From Patescibacteria group bacterium (GTDB taxonomy: Bacteria > Patescibacteriota > Patescibacteriia > UBA11705 > DATKZF01): a DNA stretch of 64,000 nt. The stretch lies in assembly GCA_049319825.1 (NCBI GenBank), contig JBMORT010000009.1:3349-67348 (forward strand), in the 5' to 3' direction. Positions 43,722 through 62,126 of the stretch are shown here, one piece after another. The notes under the pieces are model-generated. The model searched no databases. It was given only the letters and a program-made list of their open reading frames with translations, and was not told where the DNA came from. Both the position numbers and the translations under genes were made by a program. The number at the start of each line of letters is the position of its first letter. The stretch's first letter is position 1.

Positions 43722-43723
43722 AT

Positions 43724-46700
43724 ATGTTTCAGGGTTTATTTACGCAATCAAAAACAGTAGCTACAAATCAGAAAACGGGGGGGACTGCAAAGCCCTCTTT
43801 TTCTGGTTTGTTTAGTAATAGAGGGGAACAAAAAGCTCAAAAAAACAATAAATTTGCTGGAGCGGTTATCAGCGCTGATCAAAAAAAGGTCGGGATGTTT
43901 AAAGATTTATTTAAGGTTGGGAAAAAAGGATATGAACGGGCTGGTGATATAGCCAGTAAAAAATGGAGCGAGACGAAAGAATTTGTAAAAAAATATCCGA
44001 CCCCACTTGAGTATATATCTCAAAGGAAATATGAGGGGTGGGCCGGACAAAATAAAAGTTTATCAATTCGGAAACAATATGGATTCGCACTGCCGGAAAT
44101 AACCGATTTAACAAAATCGGGGTTTGATCCCGAATTATTGGAAAAAGCGAATGACTTTAAAAGTATTCCATTAAGACATAAAATAACTCAATTTTCTCTG
44201 CGTACTCAAACGCAATTAGTGGATCAAGTATCAAGAAGTTTTGCTTTTACTACGGATTATATAATGAAAGACCCTGTTCGCGCGGCCGCATTACGAGATA
44301 TGGCAAAGAATCCTTCGATTTTGGGGGGATTTAAAGCCGGGGCTACTTACGCTGCTGGGAAGTTTGTAGAAAAAACAAATACGGGAAAAATGTTAAAAGA
44401 TAAATGGGTTAATTTTTATGATGGCCTCAAAGAAAAAGGGATTATTCCAACAGATAAGGCAGTCCAGCTTGCGAATACAATGAAGCAATTACCATATATG
44501 CAGAATAGAAAAGAATGGGAAGGTGCTCCACTAAAAGATAAAATGACAAAATATTTAGGAGAAACTTTATATAATCTTGGACCAAGTTTATTTGCGTCTG
44601 TGGCGACTTATGCCGCCAGTCCGTCTTTTGGTTTTTCCGTAACGGCCAGTTCAACCGCATATGATGTAAAAGAAGATGCCATAAGATATGGCGTTGATGA
44701 AAAAAAAGCTGAAAATTTGGGATTAATAACGGGTTTGTTGGTAGCGTCGCTTGATAAGATTGTGCCGGATAAAGCTTTCTCGAAGAATATAAAAAATAAA
44801 TTCATCGGAAACTTTGCAAAAAGGATTATAAAAAGTAATGTGCTTGAAGCCGGAACGGAAATGGGACAGGAGAATATTCAAATTTTAGCTGAAGCGACTT
44901 TCAGGGATGATTTGGGTTGGGACGAAATCAAGACGCGCAATGCGATGGCGGCTTTGGGTGGGTTGGCCGGTGGTAGTGCAATGGAATCAATAAGCACGTT
45001 TAGTAATACAGTCCAGAGAGACGCGCTTTTTGAGGATATACGAAATATAAAACCCGGATTTACAGTAGAAGAGGTTTATGATGATAATTTAATGAATGAG
45101 GCGAAAAAATATAAAACGGCAGAGGATTTTATTGTAGCGGCTGAAAATAAAAAGATTGATGTATCTTCTATTGCAGAATGGTCGGATTTAAAATTTTCTG
45201 ATTTGGGGAAAATAGGAAATATTAAAACAAAAAGTCCGATATTTAAAAAGAAAGTGAAAGATGTTTCAACCGAGATATACGAAAAAACGGCACGGGAAAT
45301 TTTTGAGAATGCAAAAAAGAATGGGGAAAGTTGGGCCAAAAACAGAAGATATGAAAGCGTGTTTTCGGAAGCATTCGCCCGTGCAACAGAAAAGTTGACT
45401 CGTGGAGGTAGAATTGGAGAAAAGGAAGTATTGGATGGTTGGAGTAGAAAGGTATTAAAAGAAATATGGACTACAGCACAATATAAAACAAAATCACCTT
45501 CTGACACAAAACGTGCTCTGTCTGAAGACCGCCTCGTCAATGTTAATAATAAAACTCATAAATACAAGAGTGTGAAGGAGCAAGTAAAAATACCTTATGC
45601 AAAGTCGCTTATACAAAAAGCATTTGATAAAGACTTGCCAAACAAGACGCCAGAATATATCCAAGACTTACTTGTTAAATTACGAGATGAAGAAGCACGG
45701 GCAATTAGAAACGGGGTTGATACGAGCAAAACTTCTTATACACAGGCTGGATTTATCAACGAAAATCTCAAACAGGCACTTGACAACGTAATAAAAACCA
45801 AATCTCAACTCCAAGAAAAATTTGAATATAACACGCCAGCGATCATAGAAGCCCGGGAAAAGGCAATGTCTATTCCCGAGACAATAAATATACAAACAGA
45901 AGAACGAAATAATTTGAGAGATAAAATTGTTCGAGAATATTACGGAACGGGAGCAAAAAATAAAAACCGACGCGCCGATTTAGTTTTAGGCGTGCCTGCT
46001 TCTGGAAAATCGACCTTTTTTGGCGACCATTTAGTTAATAAGTATGGTTCACTATTGGTTGATTCTGACCAAATTAAAAAGATGTTGCCGGAATATGAAA
46101 ATGGCATTGGCGCCAGTTCGTTACACTTAGAGTCTGCTATGCTTGCCGATGATATTATCCTATCCAATGCGATACAAAATGGTGATAATGTTGTGTTGCC
46201 CAGACTTGGGAAAAACGAAAAAACGATGATTGAGCTTATAAATTTATTGAATGATTCGGGGTATGATGTTCACTTGCATTACATGGATTTACCAATAAAA
46301 GAAGCGGTCAAGCGTATAATATCAAGATTCAATGAAACGGGGCGTTTTGTTGACCCACAATTTTTAATAGAAAAAGTTGACGGAAAACCCAAAATAGTGT
46401 ATAATGCAATCAAGAGTAGAAAGGAGATTAGATCTTATGAAGCATACTCAAACGATGTTCCAAAAGGAACAAAGCCAAAACTCATCGAAAAGTCAGTATA
46501 TGACGCTGGACGAGATGGACGAATACAGCAATCTCGTGGCGATCAGGACTTTGCGAAGATTCGTAGCAAAAAAGAAAGGGAAATAAAACAGACTCAAAAA
46601 AAATCTGAAAATGAGTATTTTTCGGATAACGGGTCTGTTTTTGAATACAAAGAAATGTCTAAGGAAGAAACAAAAACAATGCAACAAGCATTTGGCGTAG

Positions 46701-49252
46701 TGGACGGAAAATCTGGATTTAGTTTTTCACAAGAAAAAGAAGAACAATATAAACAATTCAAAAAATTAAAATTAAGAAAATTAGACGAAATCGAAGATGC
46801 TACACAACTAAAAGAAAAATATCCGAACATGAATATTGATAATATTTTATATTCGCAAGAGCAATCAGGGGATGAAGTATTTGATGATTTTAAGGACAGA
46901 CTTTTAGCCGAGAGGGAAGCAAAAAAACAACAGATCGAAATACGGAGAGAAAAAGCTGAAAAAAACTGGGCCGTAAAATTGGAAAGGTCCAGAATTTACA
47001 AAACTATAATCAAAAGAAGGAAAGAGGTTAAAAATATAAAAGGTTTTTTCAAACTATCCGATGTTGACTTGAAACGCATAAATGGCAAGGATTGGCGATT
47101 TATGGATGAGGTTGAATATAAAATGTTTTTAGATGAAATAAAAAGAAAAGCCATGCAATTCACGGAAAAGAGAGAAGCTAAAAATAAATTGATGGCCACT
47201 ATACAAAGTAAAGAATTGAAAAATACCGACGATCTAAGAAAAGCAATGAAGCTCCCGTCAATTGATCAAATGACAGTCGCGCAAATGGAGCAATTCAATA
47301 AAGCACTCGAGCCGTACATGGAAGGAGATGTGTTTTTAAGTCAAAGGTTATTGGAGACTGTTGAAAATACAGAGCTGGGAGAATATAAAACATATAGGGA
47401 AGTTCAAGAACATCTATCTAAAAAGCTGGGGGTTCCGATCGCCGAATTAAAAGAAATTAAAGCCGGCTGGGTTGAAAAGTCTTTATATGACACTGCTTTG
47501 GCAAGGAAAAATCCATTTTATGCTTATGTTATAGATCAATTCAATAAATATGAATTGCAAGCTACAAAGGAATATTTGGATAGGAAAAAAGAAATAAATG
47601 TATTGGTTAATAAGGCAAGGAAATCCAGAGAACGAAGTTTGTTTGATAAACTTATTCCTACGGATAAAATCGTATTTGAATATTTGGAAAGCAACGATGC
47701 TTTAAAAGAGAAGTTATCGGAAGGAATGACAAAAGAAGAATTGGACTTGGCTGGATTTCTACAAGCTGATTTTTTCAGGATGCGCAATGAATTGATAAAA
47801 AAAGAAGCGTTAAAAAAATATAGAGAAAATTATATTACTCATGTGCAGCGAGGATTTTTAGAAGCGGTTAAGGATGGTGGATTAAAGGCTGGATTTGTGG
47901 AAATGTTTAAAAAATATAAATTTGAGGAAGCATATTTTAATATCATTGATGAAACCGGAAACGTCCTTGCGCTTGAAAAATTCTTTTCAAATTCATTACA
48001 TAGGACTGGGGAAGTCAGCCCTACTCAAAATGTCGCAAAAGCTTATTTAACTTATGTAAAATCTTTTGAAAAGAAGATGGCTTTAGATTCTGTAATTCCG
48101 GAAATAATGGCATATTCTCAGGTTTTAACAAAGGATGTCCGGACCCCGCGGGGACTTGTAAAAGATAAAACATTGATTACTTTTATGAAAAAGTGGATCA
48201 ATAATAAAAAGGGGCGGCGTCATAAATTATTTATTGAACAGGGAAATAGATTAGACGCTTTCATAAAAATATTAAATTCATTTATTACGCTTCGAGACCT
48301 GGGTTTTAATGTATATACTTCAATAGCTTCAAGGGTCGGAGAAAATGTAACAAATTTCGCTACGTTGGGCTTGAAAAAGTATGCTCTTGGTAGGGCGAGG
48401 GCAACCACTCAAAATGGCAGAAAAATATCAAAGCAATATGAAAATTTCATTGGAGAAAATCCGTTTTTAGATATAATACATGATTCAAGTCAGCACATTG
48501 GCGAAAAAACAATGAGGATGGCTTTTATTGGATTTGCGGACGCCACATATAGGTCAAATAAACACTTTCTCCTTGGATCAATGACGAAAGAAGAATATGA
48601 AAGCGGGGAAATTTCGGACCAAAGATTGGCTGAATTGAGACGCGAAATGGGCAAGTATAGAGTCGTGGAAGGAGCAAAATCAATAATGGGAAGCACGACT
48701 GAGGGCGAAATGTTTTTGAAGTATAGAAGTTGGGCCGTGCCGACTTTGATGACAACTTATAGCAATATCAAAACATTGATTAAAATGGCCGGACAGAAAA
48801 AATTCGCAAAAACTGAATTTTTAGAATTGACAAGAATAACACTTATATCAATAAGTATGTATTTATTAATGGCTACTTTGTTTGATGACGATGATGATAG
48901 CTTTTTGGGGAAACTGGCAACAAAGGCAAAAAGAGAATCGATGTCTTTAATTGAAGCATTAAAACCCACAACGTGGGCGAGTACATTTAGGATGCAAGCT
49001 TTTTTCATTGACTTGGCAAAAAACGTTATGTCAATGATCAATATGGAAAAATATAAAACAAAAGAGGGATATAAGGGGTGGGAGGGATTGAAAAAAACAT
49101 TAAAGCCGACTATGGTCAGTCAGATACAAGGATTTTTTGGAAACGAAAAAGAAGACGAAAAGTCTTCTGCGTTGCCAAGCCTGCCCAAATTACCGTCCCT
49201 TCCTCAATTACCCGGCTTGCCGGCGTTGCCGTCTTTACCTTCCTTACCATAA
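43724..49252 (+). CDS. Giant virion/ejection-type protein (1842 aa) with an embedded zeta-toxin-like P-loop kinase domain and a C-terminal (LPxLP)n repeat
   Basis: Walker A GVPASGKST. The LVDSDQIKKMLPEY and ASSLHLESAMLADD blocks (nt ~45950-46420) fit the zeta-toxin/PezT UNAG-kinase fold. C-terminal TM helices are ITLISISMYLLMATLF followed by a DDDDD stretch. The tail is LPSLPKLPSLPQLPGLPALPSLPSLP. Confidence 0.7.
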   Translation: MFQGLFTQSKTVATNQKTGGTAKPSFSGLFSNRGEQKAQKNNKFAGAVISADQKKVGMFKDLFKVGKKGYERAGDIASKKWSETKEFVKKYPTPLEYISQRKYEGWAGQNKSLSIRKQYGFALPEITDLTKSGFDPELLEKANDFKSIPLRHKITQFSLRTQTQLVDQVSRSFAFTTDYIMKDPVRAAALRDMAKNPSILGGFKAGATYAAGKFVEKTNTGKMLKDKWVNFYDGLKEKGIIPTDKAVQLANTMKQLPYMQNRKEWEGAPLKDKMTKYLGETLYNLGPSLFASVATYAASPSFGFSVTASSTAYDVKEDAIRYGVDEKKAENLGLITGLLVASLDKIVPDKAFSKNIKNKFIGNFAKRIIKSNVLEAGTEMGQENIQILAEATFRDDLGWDEIKTRNAMAALGGLAGGSAMESISTFSNTVQRDALFEDIRNIKPGFTVEEVYDDNLMNEAKKYKTAEDFIVAAENKKIDVSSIAEWSDLKFSDLGKIGNIKTKSPIFKKKVKDVSTEIYEKTAREIFENAKKNGESWAKNRRYESVFSEAFARATEKLTRGGRIGEKEVLDGWSRKVLKEIWTTAQYKTKSPSDTKRALSEDRLVNVNNKTHKYKSVKEQVKIPYAKSLIQKAFDKDLPNKTPEYIQDLLVKLRDEEARAIRNGVDTSKTSYTQAGFINENLKQALDNVIKTKSQLQEKFEYNTPAIIEAREKAMSIPETINIQTEERNNLRDKIVREYYGTGAKNKNRRADLVLGVPASGKSTFFGDHLVNKYGSLLVDSDQIKKMLPEYENGIGASSLHLESAMLADDIILSNAIQNGDNVVLPRLGKNEKTMIELINLLNDSGYDVHLHYMDLPIKEAVKRIISRFNETGRFVDPQFLIEKVDGKPKIVYNAIKSRKEIRSYEAYSNDVPKGTKPKLIEKSVYDAGRDGRIQQSRGDQDFAKIRSKKEREIKQTQKKSENEYFSDNGSVFEYKEMSKEETKTMQQAFGVVDGKSGFSFSQEKEEQYKQFKKLKLRKLDEIEDATQLKEKYPNMNIDNILYSQEQSGDEVFDDFKDRLLAEREAKKQQIEIRREKAEKNWAVKLERSRIYKTIIKRRKEVKNIKGFFKLSDVDLKRINGKDWRFMDEVEYKMFLDEIKRKAMQFTEKREAKNKLMATIQSKELKNTDDLRKAMKLPSIDQMTVAQMEQFNKALEPYMEGDVFLSQRLLETVENTELGEYKTYREVQEHLSKKLGVPIAELKEIKAGWVEKSLYDTALARKNPFYAYVIDQFNKYELQATKEYLDRKKEINVLVNKARKSRERSLFDKLIPTDKIVFEYLESNDALKEKLSEGMTKEELDLAGFLQADFFRMRNELIKKEALKKYRENYITHVQRGFLEAVKDGGLKAGFVEMFKKYKFEEAYFNIIDETGNVLALEKFFSNSLHRTGEVSPTQNVAKAYLTYVKSFEKKMALDSVIPEIMAYSQVLTKDVRTPRGLVKDKTLITFMKKWINNKKGRRHKLFIEQGNRLDAFIKILNSFITLRDLGFNVYTSIASRVGENVTNFATLGLKKYALGRARATTQNGRKISKQYENFIGENPFLDIIHDSSQHIGEKTMRMAFIGFADATYRSNKHFLLGSMTKEEYESGEISDQRLAELRREMGKYRVVEGAKSIMGSTTEGEMFLKYRSWAVPTLMTTYSNIKTLIKMAGQKKFAKTEFLELTRITLISISMYLLMATLFDDDDDSFLGKLATKAKRESMSLIEALKPTTWASTFRMQAFFIDLAKNVMSMINMEKYKTKEGYKGWEGLKKTLKPTMVSQIQGFFGNEKEDEKSSALPSLPKLPSLPQLPGLPALPSLPSLP

Positions 49253-49449
49253 TCTTTCTCCAACGCTTTATAAACGGAATACCATGAAAAAATAAAGAAT
49301 ATTGGCAAGAGTATTTCTTTATAATTTCCTTTATCTGTAATAAGGAAAATAACAAAAAACCAGATACACGCTCCTATAAAACTTTTGATATATAATTTTT
49401 TTTGTGGGGACATATTATGATATTTTATAATTCGTATTCTCGATAACAA
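49204..49449 (-). CDS. Small two-TM membrane protein
   Basis: 81 aa. It overlaps the 3' end of the giant gene on the opposite strand. Confidence 0.35.
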   Translation of the reverse strand: MLSRIRIIKYHNMSPQKKLYIKSFIGACIWFFVIFLITDKGNYKEILLPIFFIFSWYSVYKALEKDYGKEGKDGNAGKPGN

Positions 49450-49799
49450 TTATCAATTTTAGTTTGTTTATCAGCATCGGCTTTATTCCATGTGCTTGTA
49501 GCGGCCGAAATTGTGCCGTCATCGTTTTTAATGCCATTTAATTCCATATAAGTCCAATAACTTTCCTCAACTTTACTTAAACAATTATCAAGGCTCCATT
49601 TTTTCATTTTTTGTTTAAATTCCGTAGCTTCTTTTTCTTTTTGTTCGGCTTCAAAAATTGATTTTTCTTGATCTATTTGCATTTGTGTTTGTTTTTCTAT
49701 GGAATTTTGTTTGTTTAATTGAATGAGAATAAGACTGCCGCCAATGATCAACCCGCACATAATTATAGCTATTGATAAAATGATATATTTTTTATCCAT
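49425..49799 (-). CDS. Membrane-anchored coiled-coil protein (minus-strand moron-like gene)
   Basis: 124 aa. N-terminal TM ILSIAIIMCGLIIGGSLILI. It is driven by the minus-strand promoter at 49843-49871. Confidence 0.45.
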   Translation of the reverse strand: MDKKYIILSIAIIMCGLIIGGSLILIQLNKQNSIEKQTQMQIDQEKSIFEAEQKEKEATEFKQKMKKWSLDNCLSKVEESYWTYMELNGIKNDDGTISAATSTWNKADADKQTKIDNCYREYEL

Positions 49800-49842
49800 A
49801 ATTTTTAATTGATAATAATCCTATCTTCAAAATAACACCGAA

Positions 49843-49871
49843 TCATAGCAGTTGGCAATAGGGATGTCAAC
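49843..49871 (-). promoter_or_regulatory. Sigma70-like promoter (TTGACA-17-TATGAT) reading leftward
   Basis: On the minus strand, TTGACA is the reverse complement of 49866-49871 and TATGAT the reverse complement of 49843-49848. The spacer is 17 nt. Confidence 0.5.
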
Positions 49872-49878
49872 AGGGGGT

Positions 49879-49907
49879 TGACGATAAATAAAAAAGGCGA
49901 TATAATG
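49879..49907 (+). promoter_or_regulatory. Sigma70-like promoter (TTGACG-17-TATAAT) reading rightward
   Basis: TTGACG 49879-49884, 17-nt spacer, TATAAT 49902-49907. It lies 7 bp from the divergent promoter. Confidence 0.55.
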
Positions 49908-50495
49908 TTATCCACTTATCAGATTGAGTAATAGGCAATAAATTTGATATAGTGTGAATATAACAAAGACATTCCCTGAAAAGGGAACGTCTTTGCGAAT
50001 CCTAAGAAGCCGCCATTTTGGCGTCTTCTTCTATTTTCTTGCGTTTCCAGTAATCTGGATCAGCGAGAAAACAGAAGGCGCGACGGCCGACTTCTCTTGC
50101 CCATAATACTCGTCCATTGCGGAGAGTAATGTAGGGCCGGCAAATTATTTCTGCCATATTTTATGGTTAAATCCCAATAAACTATGTCAGAAACGAGGGA
50201 ATATTTCGTCTTCTGAGAATAGTTGGTATAGGAAACCTAATCCCAAAAGACAAAAAAAATCCCTTAGCCCGTATCCTGCAACCAACATTTTGGAAGAAAA
50301 TGATTGGCCGTAGTTGTCCTGGCAACCATTTAAGCTATGGCGCAGGATACCAGCTAAGGGATTCTTACTCTGGAATAACGGGCTTCATAGATAGAAAGAG
50401 GACAACTTTCTTTCTATGAACTGTAATTATAATTTATCAAAAGTTTTAAAATATGTCAAATATCCACAGCGAAAACGGCTAAAAATAGGGCAATA

Positions 50496-50524
50496 TTGAC
50501 AAATCGGTTTGCGTAAAGTATAAT
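50496..50524 (+). promoter_or_regulatory. Consensus sigma70 promoter (TTGACA-17-TATAAT)
   Basis: TTGACA 50496-50501, 17-nt spacer, TATAAT 50519-50524. It reads into the antisense of the tRNA. Confidence 0.55.
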
Positions 50525-50567
50525 GCTTTGTTATGGTAGAAGTGGAGACAAAAAAATACCTAGATAA

Positions 50568-50640
50568 AGGGGCGGGCAGACTCGAACTGCCAACTTAGGG
50601 ATTAGTAGTCCCTTGATCTGTCCAATTGATCTACGCCCCC
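50568..50640 (-). tRNA. tRNA with a canonical cloverleaf but an atypical anticodon loop CUACUAA (nominal anticodon ACU)
   Basis: The reverse strand folds into a complete cloverleaf: GGGGGCG TA GATC AATTGGACA GATC A AGGGA CUACUAA UCCCU AAGUU GGCAG UUCGAGU CUGCC CGCCCC U. The D-loop GG, the T-loop TTCGAGT, a 5-bp anticodon stem and a short variable loop are all present. Position 1-72 is a G-U wobble pair. CCA is not encoded. Confidence 0.6.
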
Positions 50641-50654
50641 TTATCTGGGTATTT

Positions 50655-50830
50655 TTATTTTAAACAAAACACGTCAATGGCAGACACTTCGCAGGGCGTT
50701 CCGGACATTCCGTTTACGACCCCACGATTTACCACTCGCGAGGCTCTTTCCTAAGAAAGTTAGCCCGACGAAGTGGCCACCATTAACGTGTTATTGACCT
50801 TGAAGTCTGCCATGCCTTGGTAAAGGCAAA
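50655..50830 (-). ncRNA. Candidate structured RNA upstream of (co-oriented with) the tRNA
   Basis: On the minus strand the 5' end ATGGCAGAC pairs with the 3' end GTCTGCCAT, enclosing about 125 nt. Nested complementarity includes GGCT...AGCC, CTTTC-TTAG-GAAAG and CCAC...GTGG. No ORF is present. Confidence 0.3.
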
Positions 50831-50951
50831 AATATTTCTTAATAATATTATATCACGCCTAAAAATCTTCTGCAAATAATTGTGGACAGCCGACTTGACA
50901 AACGATATTATCAATGTTAAATTATAAATAATAAAATAACAATGCGGTGAA

Positions 50952-50985
50952 CCCCTCTATATTTTCGAGGGGTTTTATTTTTCAA
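50952..50985 (+). terminator. Hairpin plus T-run terminator
   Basis: CCCCTC TATATTTTC GAGGGG followed by TTTTATTTTT. Confidence 0.5.
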
Positions 50986-51019
50986 AAAGTGTCCAACGAA
51001 TGTCCAAAAAATAAAACGA

Positions 51020-51208
51020 TTATAGAAATTTTTTCAAATTCTTTTTTAATTCTTCGCAGTTGATGTCTTTCGTGTAGTGATAATAAGTAGAGCGAGAAAG
51101 ACCAAGAAAATCAATAATATCCTGCGTTTTGATATTCTCATTGTCTTTAAGGCAATGCAAAATGCAGGCGCATATTTTTATAATTTTTTCTCTTTTTTCT
51201 TTGGTCAT
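51020..51208 (-). CDS. Small HTH regulator (excisionase/repressor-like)
   Basis: MTKEKREKIIKICACILHCLKDNENIKTQDIIDFLGLSRSTYYHYTKD. The start is at 51206-51208. TGTCCAA repeats flank the gene. Confidence 0.5.
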   Translation of the reverse strand: MTKEKREKIIKICACILHCLKDNENIKTQDIIDFLGLSRSTYYHYTKDINCEELKKNLKKFL

Positions 51209-51235
51209 AATGTCCAAGGAGTGTCCAAAAACGAC

Positions 51236-51265
51236 TTGACGATATTTTAAAATCAATGTTAAAAT
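51236..51265 (+). promoter_or_regulatory. Putative integrase promoter
   Basis: TTGACG 51236-51241, 17-18-nt spacer, TAAAAT-like -10. Tandem TGTCCAA repeats sit immediately upstream at 51211-51228. Confidence 0.4.
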
Positions 51266-51268
51266 CCA

Positions 51269-52192
51269 TTGTTATTTCAATTATACAATATGCGGTTAAG
51301 TTTGGCAATAAAACAATTTACGGAGTGGCGCGCGTTGAAGGTCGGGCAAAACACGAATCAAGGCTACGAATTGGTTTTGAAGCAATTTTGTTTGTTTATG
51401 AAAAACTGCGAGATTGAAGATGTGCAATTATCGCATATTGTTGAATGGTTTTCGATGATGCAAGAGCTCGGCTGGGATTCAAATAGTTTTGTAATCAAAT
51501 CAACCGCGTTGCGCAAATTTTTTGAGTTTAATAAAAAGCAGGGATTTGAGGTTTTGGATCCATGGTTTATTTTCACGCCCAAGGCAAAATTCAAAATTCC
51601 TCGCATTATTACCGAGGAAAACTACCAGAAGTTATTATCAGCCATACCTGATAATAACGATCCCCGTCATATACGAAACAAGGCTATAATTTCGCTTCTG
51701 TGGGACACGGGAGCCAGAAACGGGGAAATTGTCAGCTTAGATATTCAAGGCCTCGATTTGGTCAATTTCAAGGCTTTAATCTACACAGAAAAGTCGAAAG
51801 GGGCAAGGCCGGTGAGGGAGATGTTCTGGACAGAGGAAACGAATAAAAATCTCCTGCGATGGATTGACCGGCGAGAGCATTTGTCGCAAAAAATGAAATG
51901 GATTGATCCCGAGGCTCTTTTCGTCTGCGTCAGCTTCCATGCCGGAGAGAGATTGACGATCAAGGGTGTTGGAGAAATGCTACGCCGGTATTCTAATCAA
52001 GCAGGAATCGAAACGATGAACGCGCATAGTTTCCGTCATCACTTGGGCCGCGAAATTATTAAACGGGGCGGGACTAATGCCGATGTGATGAATGTTCTCG
52101 GCCATGCGACGCTGGAAAGCACGAAGCCCTATACATGGCTTGAAAATAAAGAAATCGAGAAGCGATATAGGAGTCTCAAGTTATCCACATAA
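51269..52192 (+). CDS. int: Tyrosine-type site-specific recombinase (phage integrase)
   Basis: 307 aa. An N-terminal SAM-like core-binding domain and a C-terminal catalytic domain with R (WDTGARNGE), HxxR (HSFRHHLGR) and the Y of TKPYTWL. Confidence 0.85.
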   Translation: MLFQLYNMRLSLAIKQFTEWRALKVGQNTNQGYELVLKQFCLFMKNCEIEDVQLSHIVEWFSMMQELGWDSNSFVIKSTALRKFFEFNKKQGFEVLDPWFIFTPKAKFKIPRIITEENYQKLLSAIPDNNDPRHIRNKAIISLLWDTGARNGEIVSLDIQGLDLVNFKALIYTEKSKGARPVREMFWTEETNKNLLRWIDRREHLSQKMKWIDPEALFVCVSFHAGERLTIKGVGEMLRRYSNQAGIETMNAHSFRHHLGREIIKRGGTNADVMNVLGHATLESTKPYTWLENKEIEKRYRSLKLST

Positions 52193-53221: not shown

Positions 53222-55249
53222 ATGGCAAAGCTGAAAAGCAGAACAAAAATCAGAATTTCAGTCGGCATAATTATCGTCTTGGCTTTGGTCATGGCTGTCT
53301 TTGATTTTCCTCAGCCGATAAACAACGCCTTAGCCAAATTGGGGATCGATAAAAAGATACAAGGCACTGATTTTCATTTGGGGCTTGATCTTTTGGGTGG
53401 CACCCACTTGGTTTATGAGGCGGATACATATCAGATAGAAGAATCCGAAAAAGGCGCGGCGCTTGAAGGCGTCAGAGATGTAATTGAAAGAAGGGTGAAT
53501 GAACTTGGTGTGGCAGAGCCGTTGGTTCAAGTTAATCGGTCGGGGGAGAAATGGCGGGTGATAGTCGAGCTGGCCGGCATCAAAGATGTTGGAGAGGCAA
53601 TCGACATGATCGGCGATACGCCGCTTTTGGAATTTAAAGAAAAAAATAATGAAGTCCCAAGAGATTTGACAGCCGCTGAAAGGACCGACCTCGAAGCTTA
53701 TAATAAGAACGCCCAGAACCGAGCCAATGATATTTTAAGCAAAGCGCTGGCCGGAGAAGATTTCGGCGAGTTGGTCAAATTATATTCGGAAGACGATGAT
53801 ACTAAGTCCAATCAGGGTGAATTAGGATATATATCCGCTGACGGTCTCTATTCTGACATATATACGTTAGCCGATAAAACAGAGGTAGGGCGGGTGATAA
53901 ACAGCGTCATCGAAAATCCGGAAGGGTTAAACATTGTCAAAGTATTGGCAAAAAGAGACGGTCCGGAGGAAATACGCGCCAGCCATATTTTAATATGTTA
54001 TGAAGGAATTGATTTCTGTCAGGATCAAATATCAAAGGAGGACGCCAGAAAAAAGATCGAAGAAATCAGAAGTCAGGCGACATCGGAAAATTTCGCTCAG
54101 CTGGCTAAAGATAATTCCGCTGATCCGGGCTCGAAAGATAATGGCGGTGAGCTGGGTTGGTTTACTAAGGAAATGATGATCGAGCCGTTCGCCACCACCG
54201 CGTTTGATCTTGCGAAGGATCAGATTTCCGAGGTGATTGAAACGGATTTTGGCTATCATATTATTTATAAAGCCGATGAGCGTGTTCGGCCAGAGTACCA
54301 AGTGGCCAGACTGCTGGTTGATTTGAGAGATCAATACGATTATGTCCCGCCGGTCGAGGAATGGAAAAATACCGGCCTGTCTGGCAAGCAGCTCAAGCAC
54401 GCCGAGGTTGTTTTTGACCCCAACACCAATTTGCCTCAGGTCAGTTTGGAATTTAATGAAGAAGGTAAAAATTTATTTTCGGAAATTACTAAACGCAATG
54501 TCGGCCAGCAAGTGGCGATATTTTTGGACGGTTCGGCCATCAGCATTCCGCGCGTTAATGAAGCTATTACCGATGGTCGCGCGGTGATATCCGGCAGTTT
54601 TAACATCAAAGACGCTAAACTTTTGGCTCAGCGGCTCAACGCCGGTGCTTTGCCGGTGCCCATTCAGCTCGTCAGCCAGCAAACGGTTGGAGCGACTCTG
54701 GGCCATGAATCGCTCAATAAAAGTTTAGTTGCCGGGTTGATCGGATTGATCTGCGTCGCGCTGTTCATGATTGCTTTTTACCGCCTGCCGGGTCTGTTAG
54801 CGACTGTCGCGCTGTTCATTTACGGAGTAATCGTCTTGTTTTTATTCAAATATATCCCGGTGACGCTTACTTTATCGGGAATTGCCGGCTTTCTGCTGTC
54901 TATCGGCATGGCTGTCGATGCCAATATTTTGATTTTTTCCAGAATGAAAGAGGAAGTGGCTGAGGGCAAACCGCTTGATTTGTCGGTACAGGAAGGCTTT
55001 CGTCGCGCTTGGCCGTCCATTCGCGATGGCAACATATCCACGCTGTTGACTTGTTTCATATTGGCTTGGTTTGGCACCAGCATGATTCGCGGGTTTGCCA
55101 TCACTTTAATAGTCGGCGTGTTAATCAGCATGCTCTCGGCGATTGTCATTACGCGGCAATTGCTGAAAGTGTTGGTGACTCCGAAAAGACAGGAAAATTC
55201 CAAGTTTTTATGGTTGTTTGGTGTGAAAAGCCGTGTAGTTAAAAAATAG
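53222..55249 (+). CDS. secD: Protein translocase subunit SecD with an inserted PpiC/parvulin-type PPIase domain
   Basis: SecD start [14 protein letters not shown] and C-terminal TM bundle. A parvulin signature block, ASHILI...[22 protein letters not shown]...FGYHIIYK, sits at nt ~53960-54285. Confidence 0.85.
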
Positions 55250-55250
55250 T

Positions 55251-56168
55251 ATGAAGGAAATAATACAAAAAAGGAAAATTTGGCTTATTTTTTCCGGCAC
55301 GCTGGTAGTGCTCAGTATTTTAGCGTTGATCGCTTTTGGCCTAAAACTGGGCATTGATTTTACCGGCGGCAGTTTATATGAAGTCAAATTCCGGCAGCAA
55401 GTTCCGGCCCCATCCGATATTCGTCAATCATTATCCGAATTGACCATTGAAGGTGAGATTGTCGTTCAACCGGCTGGAGACGACGGGTTTATAATTCGAA
55501 TGAAGCCGGATGATGAGCAGACTCACCAGCAAGTTATTGAAAAGCTGCGCGCCGCATTTGACGCCAATGACGCTCAAAATTTGGAGGAATTGAGATTCGA
55601 ATCAATCGGACCATCAATCGGCGCTGAATTGCGAGACAAAGCGGTAATCTCCATAATTTTAGTGCTCATCGCCATAATTTTATATATCGCCTGGTCTTTT
55701 CGAAAGGTTTCCTGGCCGATCGCTTCTTGGAAATACGGAGTGATCGCCGTGATCGCTTTGTTCCACGACATACTGATTACCATGGGCGTTTTCGCGGTGC
55801 TGGGTCGGTTCATGAATATTGAAGTCGGTTTGCCATTCGTGGCCGCGTTGCTGACCATTTTGGGTTATTCGGTTAACGATACTATCGTGGTGTTTGACCG
55901 CGTGCGCGAGAATTTGGCCAAGCACGGCCGAGGAGATTTTGAAAAATTGGTCAATTCCAGCGTCAATCAAACATTGTTAAGATCGATGAATACCTCTTTG
56001 ACCACACTATTAGTTTTAATAGTGATATTCATTTTTGGCGGCGCTTCGATTAAGTATTTCGTCTTGGCCCTGATAATCGGCATCGGCTTTGGCACCTACT
56101 CATCAATTTTCGTGGCCAGTCCGTTGCTAGTTGTTTGGCATAAGCTGACCAGGAAGCTTAAGGAATAA
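55251..56168 (+). CDS. secF: Protein translocase subunit SecF
   Basis: 305 aa, GIDFTGGS start, six-TM core, tightly coupled to secD. Confidence 0.85.
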   Translation: MKEIIQKRKIWLIFSGTLVVLSILALIAFGLKLGIDFTGGSLYEVKFRQQVPAPSDIRQSLSELTIEGEIVVQPAGDDGFIIRMKPDDEQTHQQVIEKLRAAFDANDAQNLEELRFESIGPSIGAELRDKAVISIILVLIAIILYIAWSFRKVSWPIASWKYGVIAVIALFHDILITMGVFAVLGRFMNIEVGLPFVAALLTILGYSVNDTIVVFDRVRENLAKHGRGDFEKLVNSSVNQTLLRSMNTSLTTLLVLIVIFIFGGASIKYFVLALIIGIGFGTYSSIFVASPLLVVWHKLTRKLKE

Positions 56169-60194: not shown

Positions 60195-62126
60195 ATGCCA
60201 GAGATAAATTCACAAATCGCGGTTTTTGCCGAGACCAACTTTCGCAATGAAAGGCGGCGTTTTGGGATTAAAGTCGATGACCGCCGGCGTCACATGTATT
60301 TTGTCGGAAAAACCGGCATGGGCAAATCCGTGGTTTTGGAAAATTTGATTTATCACGACATTATTTCCGGCAATGGCGTGGCCGTGGTTGATCCGCACGG
60401 CGATTTGGCGGAAAAAGTCATCGAATTCATCCCGGCCAATAGGATTAACGACGTTATCTATTTCAATCCTGCGGACATTGATTTTCCGATAGCTTTCAAC
60501 GTGCTCGAGAAGGTGGATCCCAAATACCGGCACTTGGTCGCGTCCGGTTTGATCGGCGTATTCAAAAAAATATGGGCGGACAGTTGGGGCCCGCGCTTGG
60601 AGTATCTCTTAAGAAACGCGATATTGGCTTTGCTCGATTATCCGGACAGCACTTTGCTGGGTGTCAATAGAATTTTAGTGGATAAGGAATATAGAAAAAA
60701 AGTGGTGGCCAAAATTCAGGATCCGGTGGTCAAAGCATTTTGGCTGGATGAGTTCACCAAATACAATCAGCAATTTTTGGTCGAGGCCATCGCTCCGATT
60801 CAAAACAAAGTCGGCCAATTTTTATCAACTTCGCTGATCAGAAACATTGTCGGTCAGGTGAAATCGACCATCAGCATGAGAGATATAATGGACAATCGAA
60901 AAATTTTGATATTGAATTTGTCCAAGGGCAGAATCGGCGAGGATTCTTCCAGCTTGCTCGGCGCGATGATCATCACGAAAATTCAGCTGGCGGCCATGTC
61001 CCGGGTCGATATTCCGGAATCGGAGAGAAAAGATTTTTATCTGTACGTCGATGAGTTCCAGAATTTCGCCACCGAAAGCTTTGCCGGCATTCTGTCCGAG
61101 GCCAGAAAATACCGGCTAAATTTGACTATCGCCCATCAATACATCGAGCAGCTGGGCGACGTGGTTAAGGCGGCCGTGTTCGGCAATGTCGGCACGATTA
61201 TCTGTTTTCGTGTCGGCGCCGCCGATGCGGAAGAGTTGGAAAAGGAATTTACGCCGCGTTTTACACCGGAGGATTTGGTTAATTTGCCCAAATACAATAT
61301 TTATTTGAAATTGATGATCGACGGTGTCGCTTCTGATCCTTTCAGCGCCAATACATTGCCGCCGCGCCATGAAAATACGGGCAATGTCGATAAAATTGTG
61401 ACGATATCTCGTGAACGCTACGCCAAATCCCGCGAAGTGGTCGAGGAAAAGATCGCCCGCTGGAGCGGTGTCGAGACCGAGGCGATGTTGCTGCGCGAGG
61501 AAAAGAAATTAAAGGAAATGAAGGCCGGTGAAAAACAGATTGAATCCGGTGATGTTTTTAAAAAATCAATTGATTTTTTGGATATTTTACGAAGAAAAAT
61601 TATGCCGCCGAAGGAATTGGCCAAAGCGGAACAGGAAATAGCCGATGTTAAGGAACAAATCGAGGCTGAACCGCAGGAAACCAAAGCCGATGTTGAAAAA
61701 ATTGTCAAGTGTGACTGGTGTTCCGCCAGGACTCGAATAAATTTCGAGCCGGATCCGGAAAAACCGGTTTTATGCAAAGAGTGCCTGAAGGATTATCGCC
61801 GCATGCAAGCCAAGGGAATTGAACCGCCGAAAAAACTAAAAGGCACACCGCAAAAAATGCTGTCCGCCAGCCGTCCGGAGCGGCCGCGGCCGGCGGATCG
61901 CCGACCCAAAAATCAGTCGGTGATCAGCATTAACGAGGCCCTGAGTAAAAAACCGGTGGCTTTTTCGAGGCGTCGGTCGGAATCGGGCAGTCGATCAGCG
62001 CGGCCGGTGATTAGCGGCCCGAAGCAAGCGGTCGGCTTGTCGTCATTGCTCAATAAAACAAAATTTGAAAAAAAAATAAATAATGACGATATCGAATTGC
62101 AGTCGGGGGAGGAAGTGAAATTGTGA
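60195..62126 (+). CDS. VirD4/TraG/TraD-like (FtsK-HerA superfamily) P-loop ATPase with C-terminal zinc ribbon
   Basis: Walker A GKTGMGKS and a VVDPHGD block. Walker B is LYVDEFQNF. The C-terminal ribbon is CDWCS...CKEC. Confidence 0.6.
   Translation: MPEINSQIAVFAETNFRNERRRFGIKVDDRRRHMYFVGKTGMGKSVVLENLIYHDIISGNGVAVVDPHGDLAEKVIEFIPANRINDVIYFNPADIDFPIAFNVLEKVDPKYRHLVASGLIGVFKKIWADSWGPRLEYLLRNAILALLDYPDSTLLGVNRILVDKEYRKKVVAKIQDPVVKAFWLDEFTKYNQQFLVEAIAPIQNKVGQFLSTSLIRNIVGQVKSTISMRDIMDNRKILILNLSKGRIGEDSSSLLGAMIITKIQLAAMSRVDIPESERKDFYLYVDEFQNFATESFAGILSEARKYRLNLTIAHQYIEQLGDVVKAAVFGNVGTIICFRVGAADAEELEKEFTPRFTPEDLVNLPKYNIYLKLMIDGVASDPFSANTLPPRHENTGNVDKIVTISRERYAKSREVVEEKIARWSGVETEAMLLREEKKLKEMKAGEKQIESGDVFKKSIDFLDILRRKIMPPKELAKAEQEIADVKEQIEAEPQETKADVEKIVKCDWCSARTRINFEPDPEKPVLCKECLKDYRRMQAKGIEPPKKLKGTPQKMLSASRPERPRPADRRPKNQSVISINEALSKKPVAFSRRRSESGSRSARPVISGPKQAVGLSSLLNKTKFEKKINNDDIELQSGEEVKL

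What the first reader, a model, noticed from the sequence alone, without database searches (positions are those of the whole stretch)
53960..54285. SecD carrying an inserted parvulin-type PPIase domain
Within the periplasmic region of SecD there is a complete PpiC/parvulin signature (ASHILI ... [14 protein letters not shown] ... FGYHIIYK). This fuses a foldase domain to the translocon accessory subunit, a SurA/PrsA-like activity built into SecDF. That would be a compact solution for a reduced genome. I am not aware of it being a standard SecD architecture.
Basis: partly seen in the sequence, partly recalled or inferred. Interest (0 to 1): 0.55.

Follow-up and report, generated by a model that had tools for sequence, protein, structure and literature searches.

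The report
SecD with built-in tandem parvulin foldase
The protein-export helper SecD of this candidate-phyla-radiation (CPR) bacterium carries, outside the membrane, a two-domain parvulin (prolyl isomerase) module like that of the chaperone SurA, and I found no paper describing this lineage-wide design.

Summary
ORF 53222-55249 (+), 675 aa, is SecD: TIGR01129 scores 372 bits against a cut-off of 244, and secF follows at 55251. The flagged bases 53960-54285 encode a complete parvulin domain (Pfam Rotamase_3, E 1.7e-39; alone 100.7 bits).

About 225 residues (aa ~143-368) sit between the P1 base and the P1 head:
- Domain A (aa 148-246) is a degenerate parvulin with no catalytic histidines.
- Domain B (aa 247-354) is nested in it and keeps the catalytic residues.
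- A return strand (aa 355-368) follows.

The pair aligns as one stretch to the SurA P1+P2 parvulins. The ordinary P1 head is separately present at aa 383-479.

This is not a one-off. All 120 best database relatives share the architecture. It also occurs in Gracilibacteria, Peregrinibacteria and Abawacabacteria, often as fused SecDF. It is standard for these CPR lineages and non-standard for the solved SecDFs.

Seven literature searches found no description. The closest known cases are non-covalent: SurA-SecDF, PpiD/YfgM-SecYEG and the Mycoplasma Sec "dome".

The likely function is a translocon-tethered foldase or holdase acting on emerging chains. Activity and the "genome economy" rationale are untested. 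I class it as a new variant of a known kind.

The parts
53222..55249 (+). secD coding sequence (675 aa plus stop), including the parvulin insert
   Evidence: ORF list. TIGR01129 secD scores 372.5 bits against a cut-off of 244.4. Pfam finds SecD_1st, SecDF_P1_head and SecD_SecF_C. An identical protein is in NCBI as 'protein translocase subunit SecD [Patescibacteria group bacterium]'.
53246..53305 (+). N-terminal membrane anchor (TM1, about aa 9-28), which places the following ~460 residues outside the cytoplasmic membrane
   Evidence: The stretch [20 protein letters not shown] is hydrophobic. The AF2 model has a helix at aa 6-28. The topology is by analogy with T. thermophilus SecDF, which aligns from aa 51.
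53468..53647 (+). P1 base, N-terminal part (aa 83-142), ending in the invariant strand TPLLEFKE
   Evidence: Pfam SecD_1st, E 2.6e-16. Aligns to TtSecDF 33-119. T133, P134, L136, E137, F138, K139 and E140 are invariant in 44 homologues.
53663..53959 (+). Parvulin domain A (aa ~148-246): degenerate, lacks its own N-terminal beta1 strand and both catalytic histidines
   Evidence: Alone it scores Rotamase 51.4 bits (cut-off 21.7) over profile positions 11-95 of 97. It aligns to SurA P1 from helix 1 onward and is 30% identical to domain B. The position equivalent to H346 is N/Y/E. pLDDT is 90-96.
53960..54283 (+). Parvulin domain B (aa 247-354): complete, with catalytic-type residues.
   Evidence: Rotamase_3 scores 100.7 bits alone. 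Foldseek gives SurA P2 4g2p TMt 0.84, rmsd 1.9 A, and PrsA PPIase 2jzv/6xd8 TMt 0.83-0.84. Conservation in 140 sequences: H255 139/140, H346 138/140, D/E301 128/140, L311 139/140, M319 132/140, F323 139/140. C259 and C266 are both present in 136 sequences and both absent in 4.
54284..54325 (+). Return strand (aa 355-368, ..[11 protein letters not shown]). It continues the last strand of domain B back alongside domain A and is the likely substitute for the missing beta1 of domain A.
   Evidence: AF2 shows continuous strands at aa 235-258 and 344-367. The consensus E-Y-x-V-S-[R/Q/H]-I-L-I resembles the parvulin beta1 motif A-S-H-I-L-I. In the ~590-aa variants P0290/P0294/P0295, domain A joins this strand directly. 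An HMM test of the permuted construct gave no gain.
54368..54658 (+). Ordinary SecDF P1 head subdomain (aa 383-479)
   Evidence: Pfam SecDF_P1_head, E 1.3e-28, profile positions 18-114 of 114. Aligns to TtSecDF from residue 158.
54662..55174 (+). SecD transmembrane domain (TM2-6, aa 481-651) with the conserved TM4 aspartate D566
   Evidence: Pfam SecD_SecF_C. AF2 shows helices 495-544, 551-580, 585-617 and 620-651. D566 aligns to T. thermophilus D340 and is D in 133 of the 134 sequences that cover this column.
55251..56168 (+). secF (305 aa), a separate gene starting 2 nt after the secD stop
   Evidence: TIGR00966 SecF scores 316.4 bits against a cut-off of 160. Pfam SecD_SecF_C, E 5.3e-61.

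Best explanation
This is a genuine SecD, the subunit of the proton-driven SecDF motor that helps pull proteins out of the SecYEG channel. Its extracytoplasmic P1 domain carries a rigid two-domain parvulin module at the junction between the P1 base and the mobile P1 head.

The chain leaves the base strand (LEFKE) and builds a degenerate parvulin, domain A. At the end of A's last strand it continues into a complete parvulin, domain B. It then returns along a long beta-ribbon that supplies A's missing first strand, and only then enters the normal P1 head.

Domain B keeps the catalytic and proline-pocket residues of active parvulins, so it most likely catalyses prolyl cis-trans isomerisation. Domain A, like SurA P1, most likely acts as a scaffold or a binding surface for unfolded chains.

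The module is tethered next to the head, which binds emerging pre-proteins, and is held at the translocon exit. Secreted and membrane proteins would therefore meet it as they emerge. That makes the contact covalent and permanent, where other bacteria rely on recruiting SurA, PpiD/YfgM or PrsA.

Shown here: the gene, the domain composition, the nesting, the residue conservation and the lineage-wide distribution. Inferred: enzymatic activity, the substrates, and the position of the module relative to the head and to SecYEG.
For: - **Host and insert.** HMM evidence supports both.
- **SurA-like pair.** One continuous alignment covers aa 163-354 against E. coli SurA 174-364, that is P1+P2 (E 3e-20).
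- **Insert size.** T. thermophilus SecDF aligns to aa 51-142 and 384-664, leaving 241 residues here against 38 there.
- **Full-length model.** The insert has pLDDT 90-96.
- **Insert-only model.** pLDDT is 92 and pTM 0.76. The best solved match is SurA 1m5y (E 8e-12). Domain B matches SurA P2 at TMt 0.84, rmsd 1.9 A.
- **Catalytic-type residues.** H255, H346, D/E301, L311, M319 and F323 are nearly invariant in 140 homologues. Domain A lacks the histidines.
- **Nesting.** Three natural ~590-aa variants lack exactly domain B.
- **Conservation.** All 120 best relatives (53-72% identity) share the architecture. It is also found in Gracilibacteria, Abawacabacteria, Peregrinibacteria and Buchananbacteria, in both split and fused SecDF forms.
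- **Independent biology.** SurA binds the holotranslocon, and AlphaFold places its P1+P2 parvulins on the SecDF P1 head (PMC9987972). PpiD/YfgM associates with SecYEG (PMC9643414). In Mycoplasma a PrsA-like dome sits on the Sec translocon and crosslinks to SecD (10.1101/2025.04.25.650208 and 10.1101/2024.09.05.611430).
Against: - No enzymatic or genetic data exist for any member.
- The acidic residue at position 301 (equivalent to Pin1 C113) is Gly in 12 of 140 sequences, so catalysis may be weak in some members.
- PpiD and SurA P1 show that a parvulin fold at the translocon can work without PPIase activity.
- The full-length model has pTM 0.40, so the position of the module relative to the head, SecF and SecYEG is not predicted.
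- No model coordinates were available. The pairing of the return strand with domain A rests on secondary-structure strings, sequence resemblance and the deletion variants. The HMM test of the permuted domain gave no gain.
- Whether these genomes lack free PrsA-, SurA- or PpiD-type proteins is unknown. Only 64 kb was checked.
Confidence: 0.7

Rival explanations
1. The module is a non-catalytic holdase or substrate-capture extension of the P1 head. Both parvulin folds only bind unfolded chains, as SurA P1 and the PpiD parvulin do, and so enlarge the clamp that SecDF uses to pull substrates. Prolyl isomerisation would be irrelevant.
For: Domain A has lost its catalytic residues yet is retained everywhere, including in variants that lack domain B altogether. 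Residue 301 is Gly in 12 of 140 sequences. The PpiD parvulin matches the model weakly (8zht). From established knowledge: the chaperone function of SurA does not need its PPIase activity.
Against: Both histidines and the Leu/Met/Phe proline pocket of domain B are nearly invariant across relatives down to about 41% overall identity. This is the conservation pattern of active parvulins, not of degenerate ones such as domain A in the same protein.
Confidence: 0.2
2. The insert is mainly structural. It could be a rigid spacer or strut that changes the reach or gating of the P1 head in the unusual CPR envelope, or a docking site for another envelope protein, with no direct action on Sec substrates.
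For: The module is predicted to be rigid: two ~24-residue strands span both domains and the insert pTM is 0.76. It sits in one of the two base-head connections. Other variants carry a further ~150 residues at the same place (P0340, P0361, P0312, P0355).
Against: A spacer would not need a conserved parvulin active site. Free-standing membrane-anchored proteins combining a P1-head-like domain with the same type of parvulin exist, which points to a functional pairing rather than packing material.
Confidence: 0.08
3. The fusion is an artefact: an assembly chimera, a frameshift-joined pair of genes, or an ORF-calling error in a metagenome-assembled genome.
For: The window comes from an uncultured organism. 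The exact protein is known from one NCBI record and one Logan assembly.
Against: The reading frame is uninterrupted. The same architecture recurs in more than 200 distinct 90%-identity clusters from NCBI, JGI, ENA and Logan assemblies, and in an independent GTDB genome, L001, at 53% identity. SecD segments flank the insert on both sides in the correct order.
Confidence: 0.01

Closest known systems
SecD/SecDF of T. thermophilus and D. radiodurans (PDB 3AQP, 5XAN, 5YHF)
   Same: The N-terminal TM, P1 base, P1 head, six-TM RND-like domain and TM4 aspartate are all present, and SecF is the partner. Foldseek E is 7e-19 to 1e-17 for the first five matches. The sequence alignment covers aa 51-142 and 384-664.
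   Different: About 241 residues here replace about 38 residues of T. thermophilus between the base strand and the head. They form two parvulin domains that are absent from the solved SecDFs.
SurA (E. coli, PDB 1M5Y)
   Same: It has tandem parvulin domains in the same order, with the first inactive (P1) and the second active (P2). The two align as one stretch (E 3e-20), and SurA is the best structural match of the insert. SurA binds the holotranslocon, and AlphaFold places its P1+P2 on the SecDF P1 head (PMC9987972).
   Different: There is no SurA N-terminal chaperone domain or C-terminal tail. The protein is not soluble. The two parvulins are joined by a continuous beta-ribbon with domain B nested in A, rather than being separate linked domains. 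The contact with SecD is covalent rather than by recruitment.
PrsA of Gram-positive bacteria (PDB 4WO7, 2JZV, 6XD8)
   Same: It is a membrane-tethered extracytoplasmic parvulin foldase acting on Sec substrates in a cell with a single membrane. Domain B matches the PrsA PPIase domains at TMt 0.83-0.84.
   Different: PrsA is a lipoprotein dimer with an N/C foldase domain and one parvulin. Here there is no lipobox and no N/C domain, and the tether is SecD itself.
PpiD/YfgM at SecYEG (PDB 8ZHT; PMC9643414)
   Same: It is a membrane-anchored protein containing a parvulin and stationed at the translocon exit.
   Different: PpiD is a separate protein with a SurA-like domain, and its parvulin is inactive. 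It contacts SecY rather than being part of SecD. The structural match is weak (TMq 0.29).
Mycoplasma pneumoniae Sec 'dome' (Mdp444/436/489; bioRxiv 10.1101/2025.04.25.650208 and 10.1101/2024.09.05.611430)
   Same: It occurs in a genome-reduced bacterium with a single membrane. PrsA-like PPIC domains, one active and the others degenerate, are held permanently over the Sec translocon and crosslink to SecD.
   Different: The assembly is non-covalent and made of very large lipoproteins. The proteins and the lineage are unrelated. It is described as unique to Mycoplasmas.

Membership tests
SecD (TIGR01129; Pfam SecD_1st + SecDF_P1_head + SecD_SecF_C) | Whole-protein HMM score above the curated cut-off | tested here: met
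   TIGR01129 scores 372.5 bits against a cut-off of 244.4, and model positions 1-397 are matched across aa 53-648.
SecD (TIGR01129; Pfam SecD_1st + SecDF_P1_head + SecD_SecF_C) | P1 base, P1 head and C-terminal multi-TM domain in the canonical order after an N-terminal TM | tested here: met
   Pfam coordinates are 83-142, 383-479 and 481-651. AF2 helices are consistent. Foldseek hits SecDF 5xan and 3aqp.
SecD (TIGR01129; Pfam SecD_1st + SecDF_P1_head + SecD_SecF_C) | Conserved TM4 aspartate of the proton path (T. thermophilus D340) | tested here: met
   D566 aligns to Tt D340 and is D in 133 of the 134 sequences that cover this column.
SecD (TIGR01129; Pfam SecD_1st + SecDF_P1_head + SecD_SecF_C) | SecF partner encoded alongside | tested here: met
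   secF lies at 55251-56168. TIGR00966 scores 316.4 bits against a cut-off of 160.
SecD (TIGR01129; Pfam SecD_1st + SecDF_P1_head + SecD_SecF_C) | Stimulates PMF-dependent protein export | not testable with these tools
   Needs genetics or biochemistry.
Parvulin PPIase (Pfam PF00639/PF13616), domain B | HMM score above the gathering cut-off, and the parvulin fold | tested here: met
   100.7 bits against a cut-off of 22.5. TMt 0.84, rmsd 1.9 A to SurA P2 4g2p.
Parvulin PPIase (Pfam PF00639/PF13616), domain B | Catalytic His pair, acidic or Cys residue, and Leu/Met/Phe proline pocket (Pin1 H59, H157, C113, L122, M130, F134) | tested here: met
   H255, H346, D301 (D/E in 128/140), L311, M319 and F323. 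The mapping to Pin1 numbering is by my own manual alignment from the remembered Pin1 sequence.
Parvulin PPIase (Pfam PF00639/PF13616), domain B | Measured prolyl isomerase activity | not testable with these tools
   Needs an enzyme assay.
Parvulin PPIase (Pfam PF00639/PF13616), domain A | HMM score above the gathering cut-off | tested here: met
   Rotamase scores 51.4 bits against a cut-off of 21.7, but only over profile positions 11-95 of 97.
Parvulin PPIase (Pfam PF00639/PF13616), domain A | Catalytic histidines | tested here: not met
   There is no N-terminal xHILx strand. The position equivalent to H346 is N237 (N/Y/E in the family). The return strand has R/Q at the His position, with His in only 8 of 140 sequences.
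SurA | N-terminal SurA chaperone domain plus C-terminal tail forming the core module | tested here: not met
   There is no Pfam match other than Rotamase within aa 143-383. The NCBIfam SurA model scores 76.8 bits against a cut-off of 394.
SurA | Tandem parvulins, the first inactive and the second active | tested here: met
   A single alignment covers SurA 174-364.
PrsA | Lipoprotein signal peptide and N/C foldase domain flanking one parvulin | tested here: not met
   NCBIfam PrsA models score 79-85 bits against cut-offs of 343-361, matching only the parvulin. The N-terminus is the SecD TM anchor.
PpiD | A separate single-pass protein with a SurA-like domain and an inactive parvulin | tested here: not met
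   NF008054 scores 58.9 bits against a cut-off of 493. Here the parvulin lies inside SecD and is of the catalytic type.

The most novel reading that the evidence does not exclude
The parvulin module is mechanically coupled to the SecDF motor. The proton-driven swing of the P1 head would hand each emerging segment to the catalytic parvulin tethered at the hinge. Translocation and prolyl isomerisation or holdase action would then be coupled in one polypeptide, giving in effect an energy-linked extracytoplasmic foldase. This design would have replaced free PrsA-, SurA- or PpiD-type factors early in CPR evolution. It would also serve as a natural 'Rosetta-stone' fusion showing that the parvulin-P1-head contact proposed for E. 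coli SurA is physiological.
Probability: 0.2. Interest if true: 0.8.

Novelty: new variant of a known kind. Interest (0 to 1): 0.6.

Why it matters
**The open question.** How proteins leaving SecYEG are handed to folding factors, in a compartment without ATP, is not settled. Recent work proposes transient contacts: SurA with the SecDF P1 head, PpiD/YfgM with SecY, and a PrsA-like dome on the Mycoplasma translocon.

**What this family adds.** In a natural, conserved family the SurA-type parvulin pair is covalently inserted next to the P1 head. That is independent evolutionary evidence that the partnership is functional.

**A tractable object.** It offers a single polypeptide for structural and biochemical study of coupled translocation and folding.

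**Envelope biology and annotation.** The insert adds a concrete trait to the little-known envelope biology of CPR bacteria. It may also serve as a lineage marker for ABY1-type and Gracilibacteria-type groups. At present these proteins are annotated simply as "SecD", so the foldase content of these genomes is under-reported.

Tried and rejected
1. **GTDB genome scan.** I ran it with a single protein rather than an alignment.
2. **Other parvulins in the window.** A phmmer search of all six-frame ORFs found none. This is too little sequence to say the genome lacks PrsA or SurA.
3. **Test of the circular-permutation idea.** I moved the return strand in front of domain A and rescanned Pfam. There was no gain over the native order or a reversed-strand control, so the result is inconclusive.
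4. **Names for divergent clusters.** Almost none carried names.
5. **Seven literature searches.** None found a paper describing a SecD-parvulin fusion. PMC7897499 and the 'giant genes' preprint were checked and are irrelevant.
Rejected: the head is separately present at aa 383-479.
7. **Assembly or annotation artefact.** Rejected because the architecture recurs in hundreds of independent assemblies.

Full report
**1. What is at the coordinates**

The flagged bases 53960-54285 lie inside one uninterrupted ORF, 53222-55249 on the + strand, of 675 aa. The quoted motifs are present: ASHILI at aa 253-258, [14 protein letters not shown] at aa 301-314 and FGYHIIYK at aa 343-350.

Pfam gives these matches:
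- SecD_1st at aa 83-142.
- Rotamase_3, E 1.7e-39, and Rotamase, E 6.3e-37, each with two matched stretches. The best Rotamase_3 stretch is aa 237-352.
- SecDF_P1_head at aa 383-479, E 1.3e-28.
- SecD_SecF_C at aa 481-651.

NCBIfam TIGR01129 (secD) scores 372.5 bits against a cut-off of 244.4. The next gene, 55251-56168, is SecF (TIGR00966, 316 bits).

**2. Anatomy of the insert**

T. thermophilus SecDF (3AQP) aligns to aa 51-142 (Tt 33-119) and aa 384-664 (Tt 158-436). About 241 residues here therefore replace about 38 residues at the entry to the P1 head.

The same search aligns aa 163-354 as one stretch to E. coli SurA 174-364, which is the tandem P1+P2 parvulins (E 3e-20).

*Domain B (aa 247-354)* scores 100.7 bits for Rotamase_3 on its own. 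*Domain A (aa ~148-246)* scores 51.4 bits for Rotamase, still above the cut-off, but only over profile positions 11-95 of 97. It lacks the first beta-strand. A and B are 30% identical.

AlphaFold2 with a 44-sequence alignment gives pLDDT 90-96 across the insert in the full-length model (mean 82, pTM 0.40). For the insert alone it gives pLDDT 92 and pTM 0.76.

Foldseek results:
- The full model hits SecDF (5xan, 3aqp; E ~1e-18) and SurA.
- The insert model hits SurA 1m5y best (E 8e-12).
- Domain B superposes on SurA P2 (4g2p; TMt 0.84, rmsd 1.9 A) and on PrsA PPIase domains (TMt 0.83-0.84).

**3. Nesting**

The secondary-structure strings show two uninterrupted ~24-residue strands, aa 235-258 and aa 344-367. 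The first runs from the last strand of A into the first strand of B. The second runs from the last strand of B into a return strand..[11 protein letters not shown].

The family consensus of that return strand is E-Y-x-V-S-[R/Q/H]-I-L-I. This mimics the parvulin beta1 motif A-S-H-I-L-I, with His still present in 8 of 140 sequences.

Three natural variants of about 590 aa (P0290, P0294, P0295) lack exactly domain B. In them the last strand of A turns straight into the return strand.

I infer that A plus the return strand is one, effectively circularly permuted, parvulin unit, and that B is nested in its terminal hairpin. This is an inference. I had no model coordinates, and an HMM test of the re-ordered domain gave no gain.

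**4. Conservation of functional residues**

In 140 aligned fusion SecDs:
- H255 is conserved in 139/140 and H346 in 138/140.
- Position 301, equivalent to Pin1 C113 or the Asp of other parvulins, is D/E in 128 and G in 12.
- L311, M319 and F323 are nearly invariant.

The mapping to Pin1 is my own manual alignment. Domain A has none of the histidines.

C259 and C266 are both present in 136 sequences and both absent in 4, never one alone. That pattern fits a disulfide in the beta1-alpha1 loop of domain B (inference).

The SecD TM4 aspartate (D566, equivalent to Tt D340) is conserved, so the motor part looks functional.

**5. Distribution**

The exact protein is in NCBI as SecD of a 'Patescibacteria group bacterium'. 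All 120 best relatives (53-72% identity, 590-714 aa) carry the same Pfam combination. Their names include Falkowbacteria, Magasanikbacteria, Kuenenbacteria and Parcubacteria group.

A search of 50%-identity cluster representatives with the insert alone found 23 SecD-type clusters among the best 150.

A search from the most divergent full-length member (P0190, 41% identity) found the insert in Gracilibacteria, Abawacabacteria, Peregrinibacteria and Buchananbacteria. Many of these are fused SecDF proteins of 1000-1120 aa.

An independent GTDB genome (L001) also has it.

The architecture is therefore an old, lineage-wide trait of at least two CPR groups. It is not an oddity of this genome and not an assembly artefact.

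No curated NCBIfam model is specific for it: the SecDF full-length models all fall below their cut-offs. Sources name it only 'SecD'.

**6. Context**

- Upstream lie a tyrosine integrase (51269-52192) and, further up, a CHAP-domain protein and an 1842-aa protein with a zeta-toxin/AAA domain.
- Downstream of secF lie a class-I glutamine amidotransferase, a protein with sigma-70 region 4, and a T4SS coupling-protein homologue.
- Nothing in the neighbourhood is functionally linked to the insert.
- No other parvulin is encoded in the 64-kb window.

**7. Mechanism**

Established knowledge: the SecDF P1 head binds emerging pre-proteins and swings between F and I forms, driven by proton flow.

The module is placed in one of the two base-head connections, outside the membrane, since it follows the N-terminal TM anchor. 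I think it most likely acts as a translocon-tethered foldase. B would act as an active prolyl isomerase. A would act as a scaffold or binding surface for unfolded chains, like SurA P1.

Support from the literature is indirect but pointed:
- SurA binds the SecYEG-SecDF-YidC holotranslocon. AlphaFold places precisely its P1 and P2 parvulins on the SecDF P1 head (PMC9987972).
- PpiD/YfgM sits at SecYEG (PMC9643414).
- In genome-reduced Mycoplasma, a dome of PrsA-like proteins with one active and several degenerate PPIC domains sits on the Sec translocon and crosslinks to SecD.

The CPR protein makes this contact covalent.

The main rival is a purely non-catalytic holdase or clamp role. A structural-spacer role is less likely given the conserved active site.

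**8. Comparison and novelty**

The protein is a member of the SecD family, and its insert domains are members of the parvulin family. It is not a SurA, PrsA or PpiD, because their defining chaperone domains are absent.

Seven full-text searches found no description of a SecD-parvulin fusion. Subscription-only literature and database domain-architecture listings were not searchable.

I class it as a new variant of a known kind. It is interesting to Sec and chaperone specialists as a natural Rosetta-stone fusion and a possible CPR lineage marker. No function has yet been shown.

Noticed in passing
P0253, P0219, P0247 (public proteins found; sequences): These are free-standing ~282-aa proteins. 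Each has an N-terminal membrane anchor, a SecDF_P1_head-like domain (Pfam E ~1e-16) and one parvulin very like domain B, including the HILICxGAxxC Cys pair and ETEFGYHLIYK. They have no SecD transmembrane domain. This is an independent head-plus-parvulin combination. Their organisms are unknown.
   Followed up: partly
P0290, P0294, P0295; P0340, P0361, P0312, P0355; P0278-P0289 and others: There are architectural variants of the same SecD family. Forms of ~590 aa have only the degenerate domain A. Forms of 778-795 aa have about 150 extra residues between parvulin B and the P1 head. Fused SecDF forms of 1000-1120 aa occur in the Gracilibacteria, Peregrinibacteria and Abawacabacteria.
   Followed up: partly
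window 53996-53998 and 54017-54019 (codons C259 and C266): Two cysteines in the beta1-alpha1 loop of parvulin B co-vary perfectly. Both are present in 136 of 140 homologues and both absent in 4, never one alone. This suggests an extracytoplasmic disulfide.
   Followed up: partly
window 41598-52192 and 60195-62126: secDF is flanked by genes typical of mobile elements. Upstream are a CHAP-domain protein (41598-43721), an 1842-aa protein with a zeta-toxin/AAA domain (43724-49252) and a tyrosine integrase (51269-52192). Downstream is a T4SS coupling-protein (TrwB/TraG-like) homologue (60195-62126).
   Followed up: no
P0002: The closest non-identical relative (70% identity, on a 267-kb contig) is labelled 'Candidatus Bipolaricaulota bacterium' in NCBI, while all other named relatives are CPR/Patescibacteria. 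This is either a mislabelled bin or a lateral transfer.
   Followed up: no
window 54365-55189 (aa 382-656), NCBIfam NF009585: The 993-position SecDF model NF009585 aligns its positions 379-652 to aa 382-656. That SecDF family therefore also has several hundred residues ahead of the P1 head. The base-head junction may be a general hot spot for insertions in SecD.
   Followed up: no
P0137, P0139, P0142 and many others; P0135, P0136, P0138 and others: The nearest non-SecD relatives of the insert fall into two groups. One is numerous 630-750-aa proteins with tandem parvulins at aa ~120-340 and no other Pfam domain. The other is 360-390-aa proteins made of three tandem parvulins. Either could be a source of the tandem insert.
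   Followed up: no
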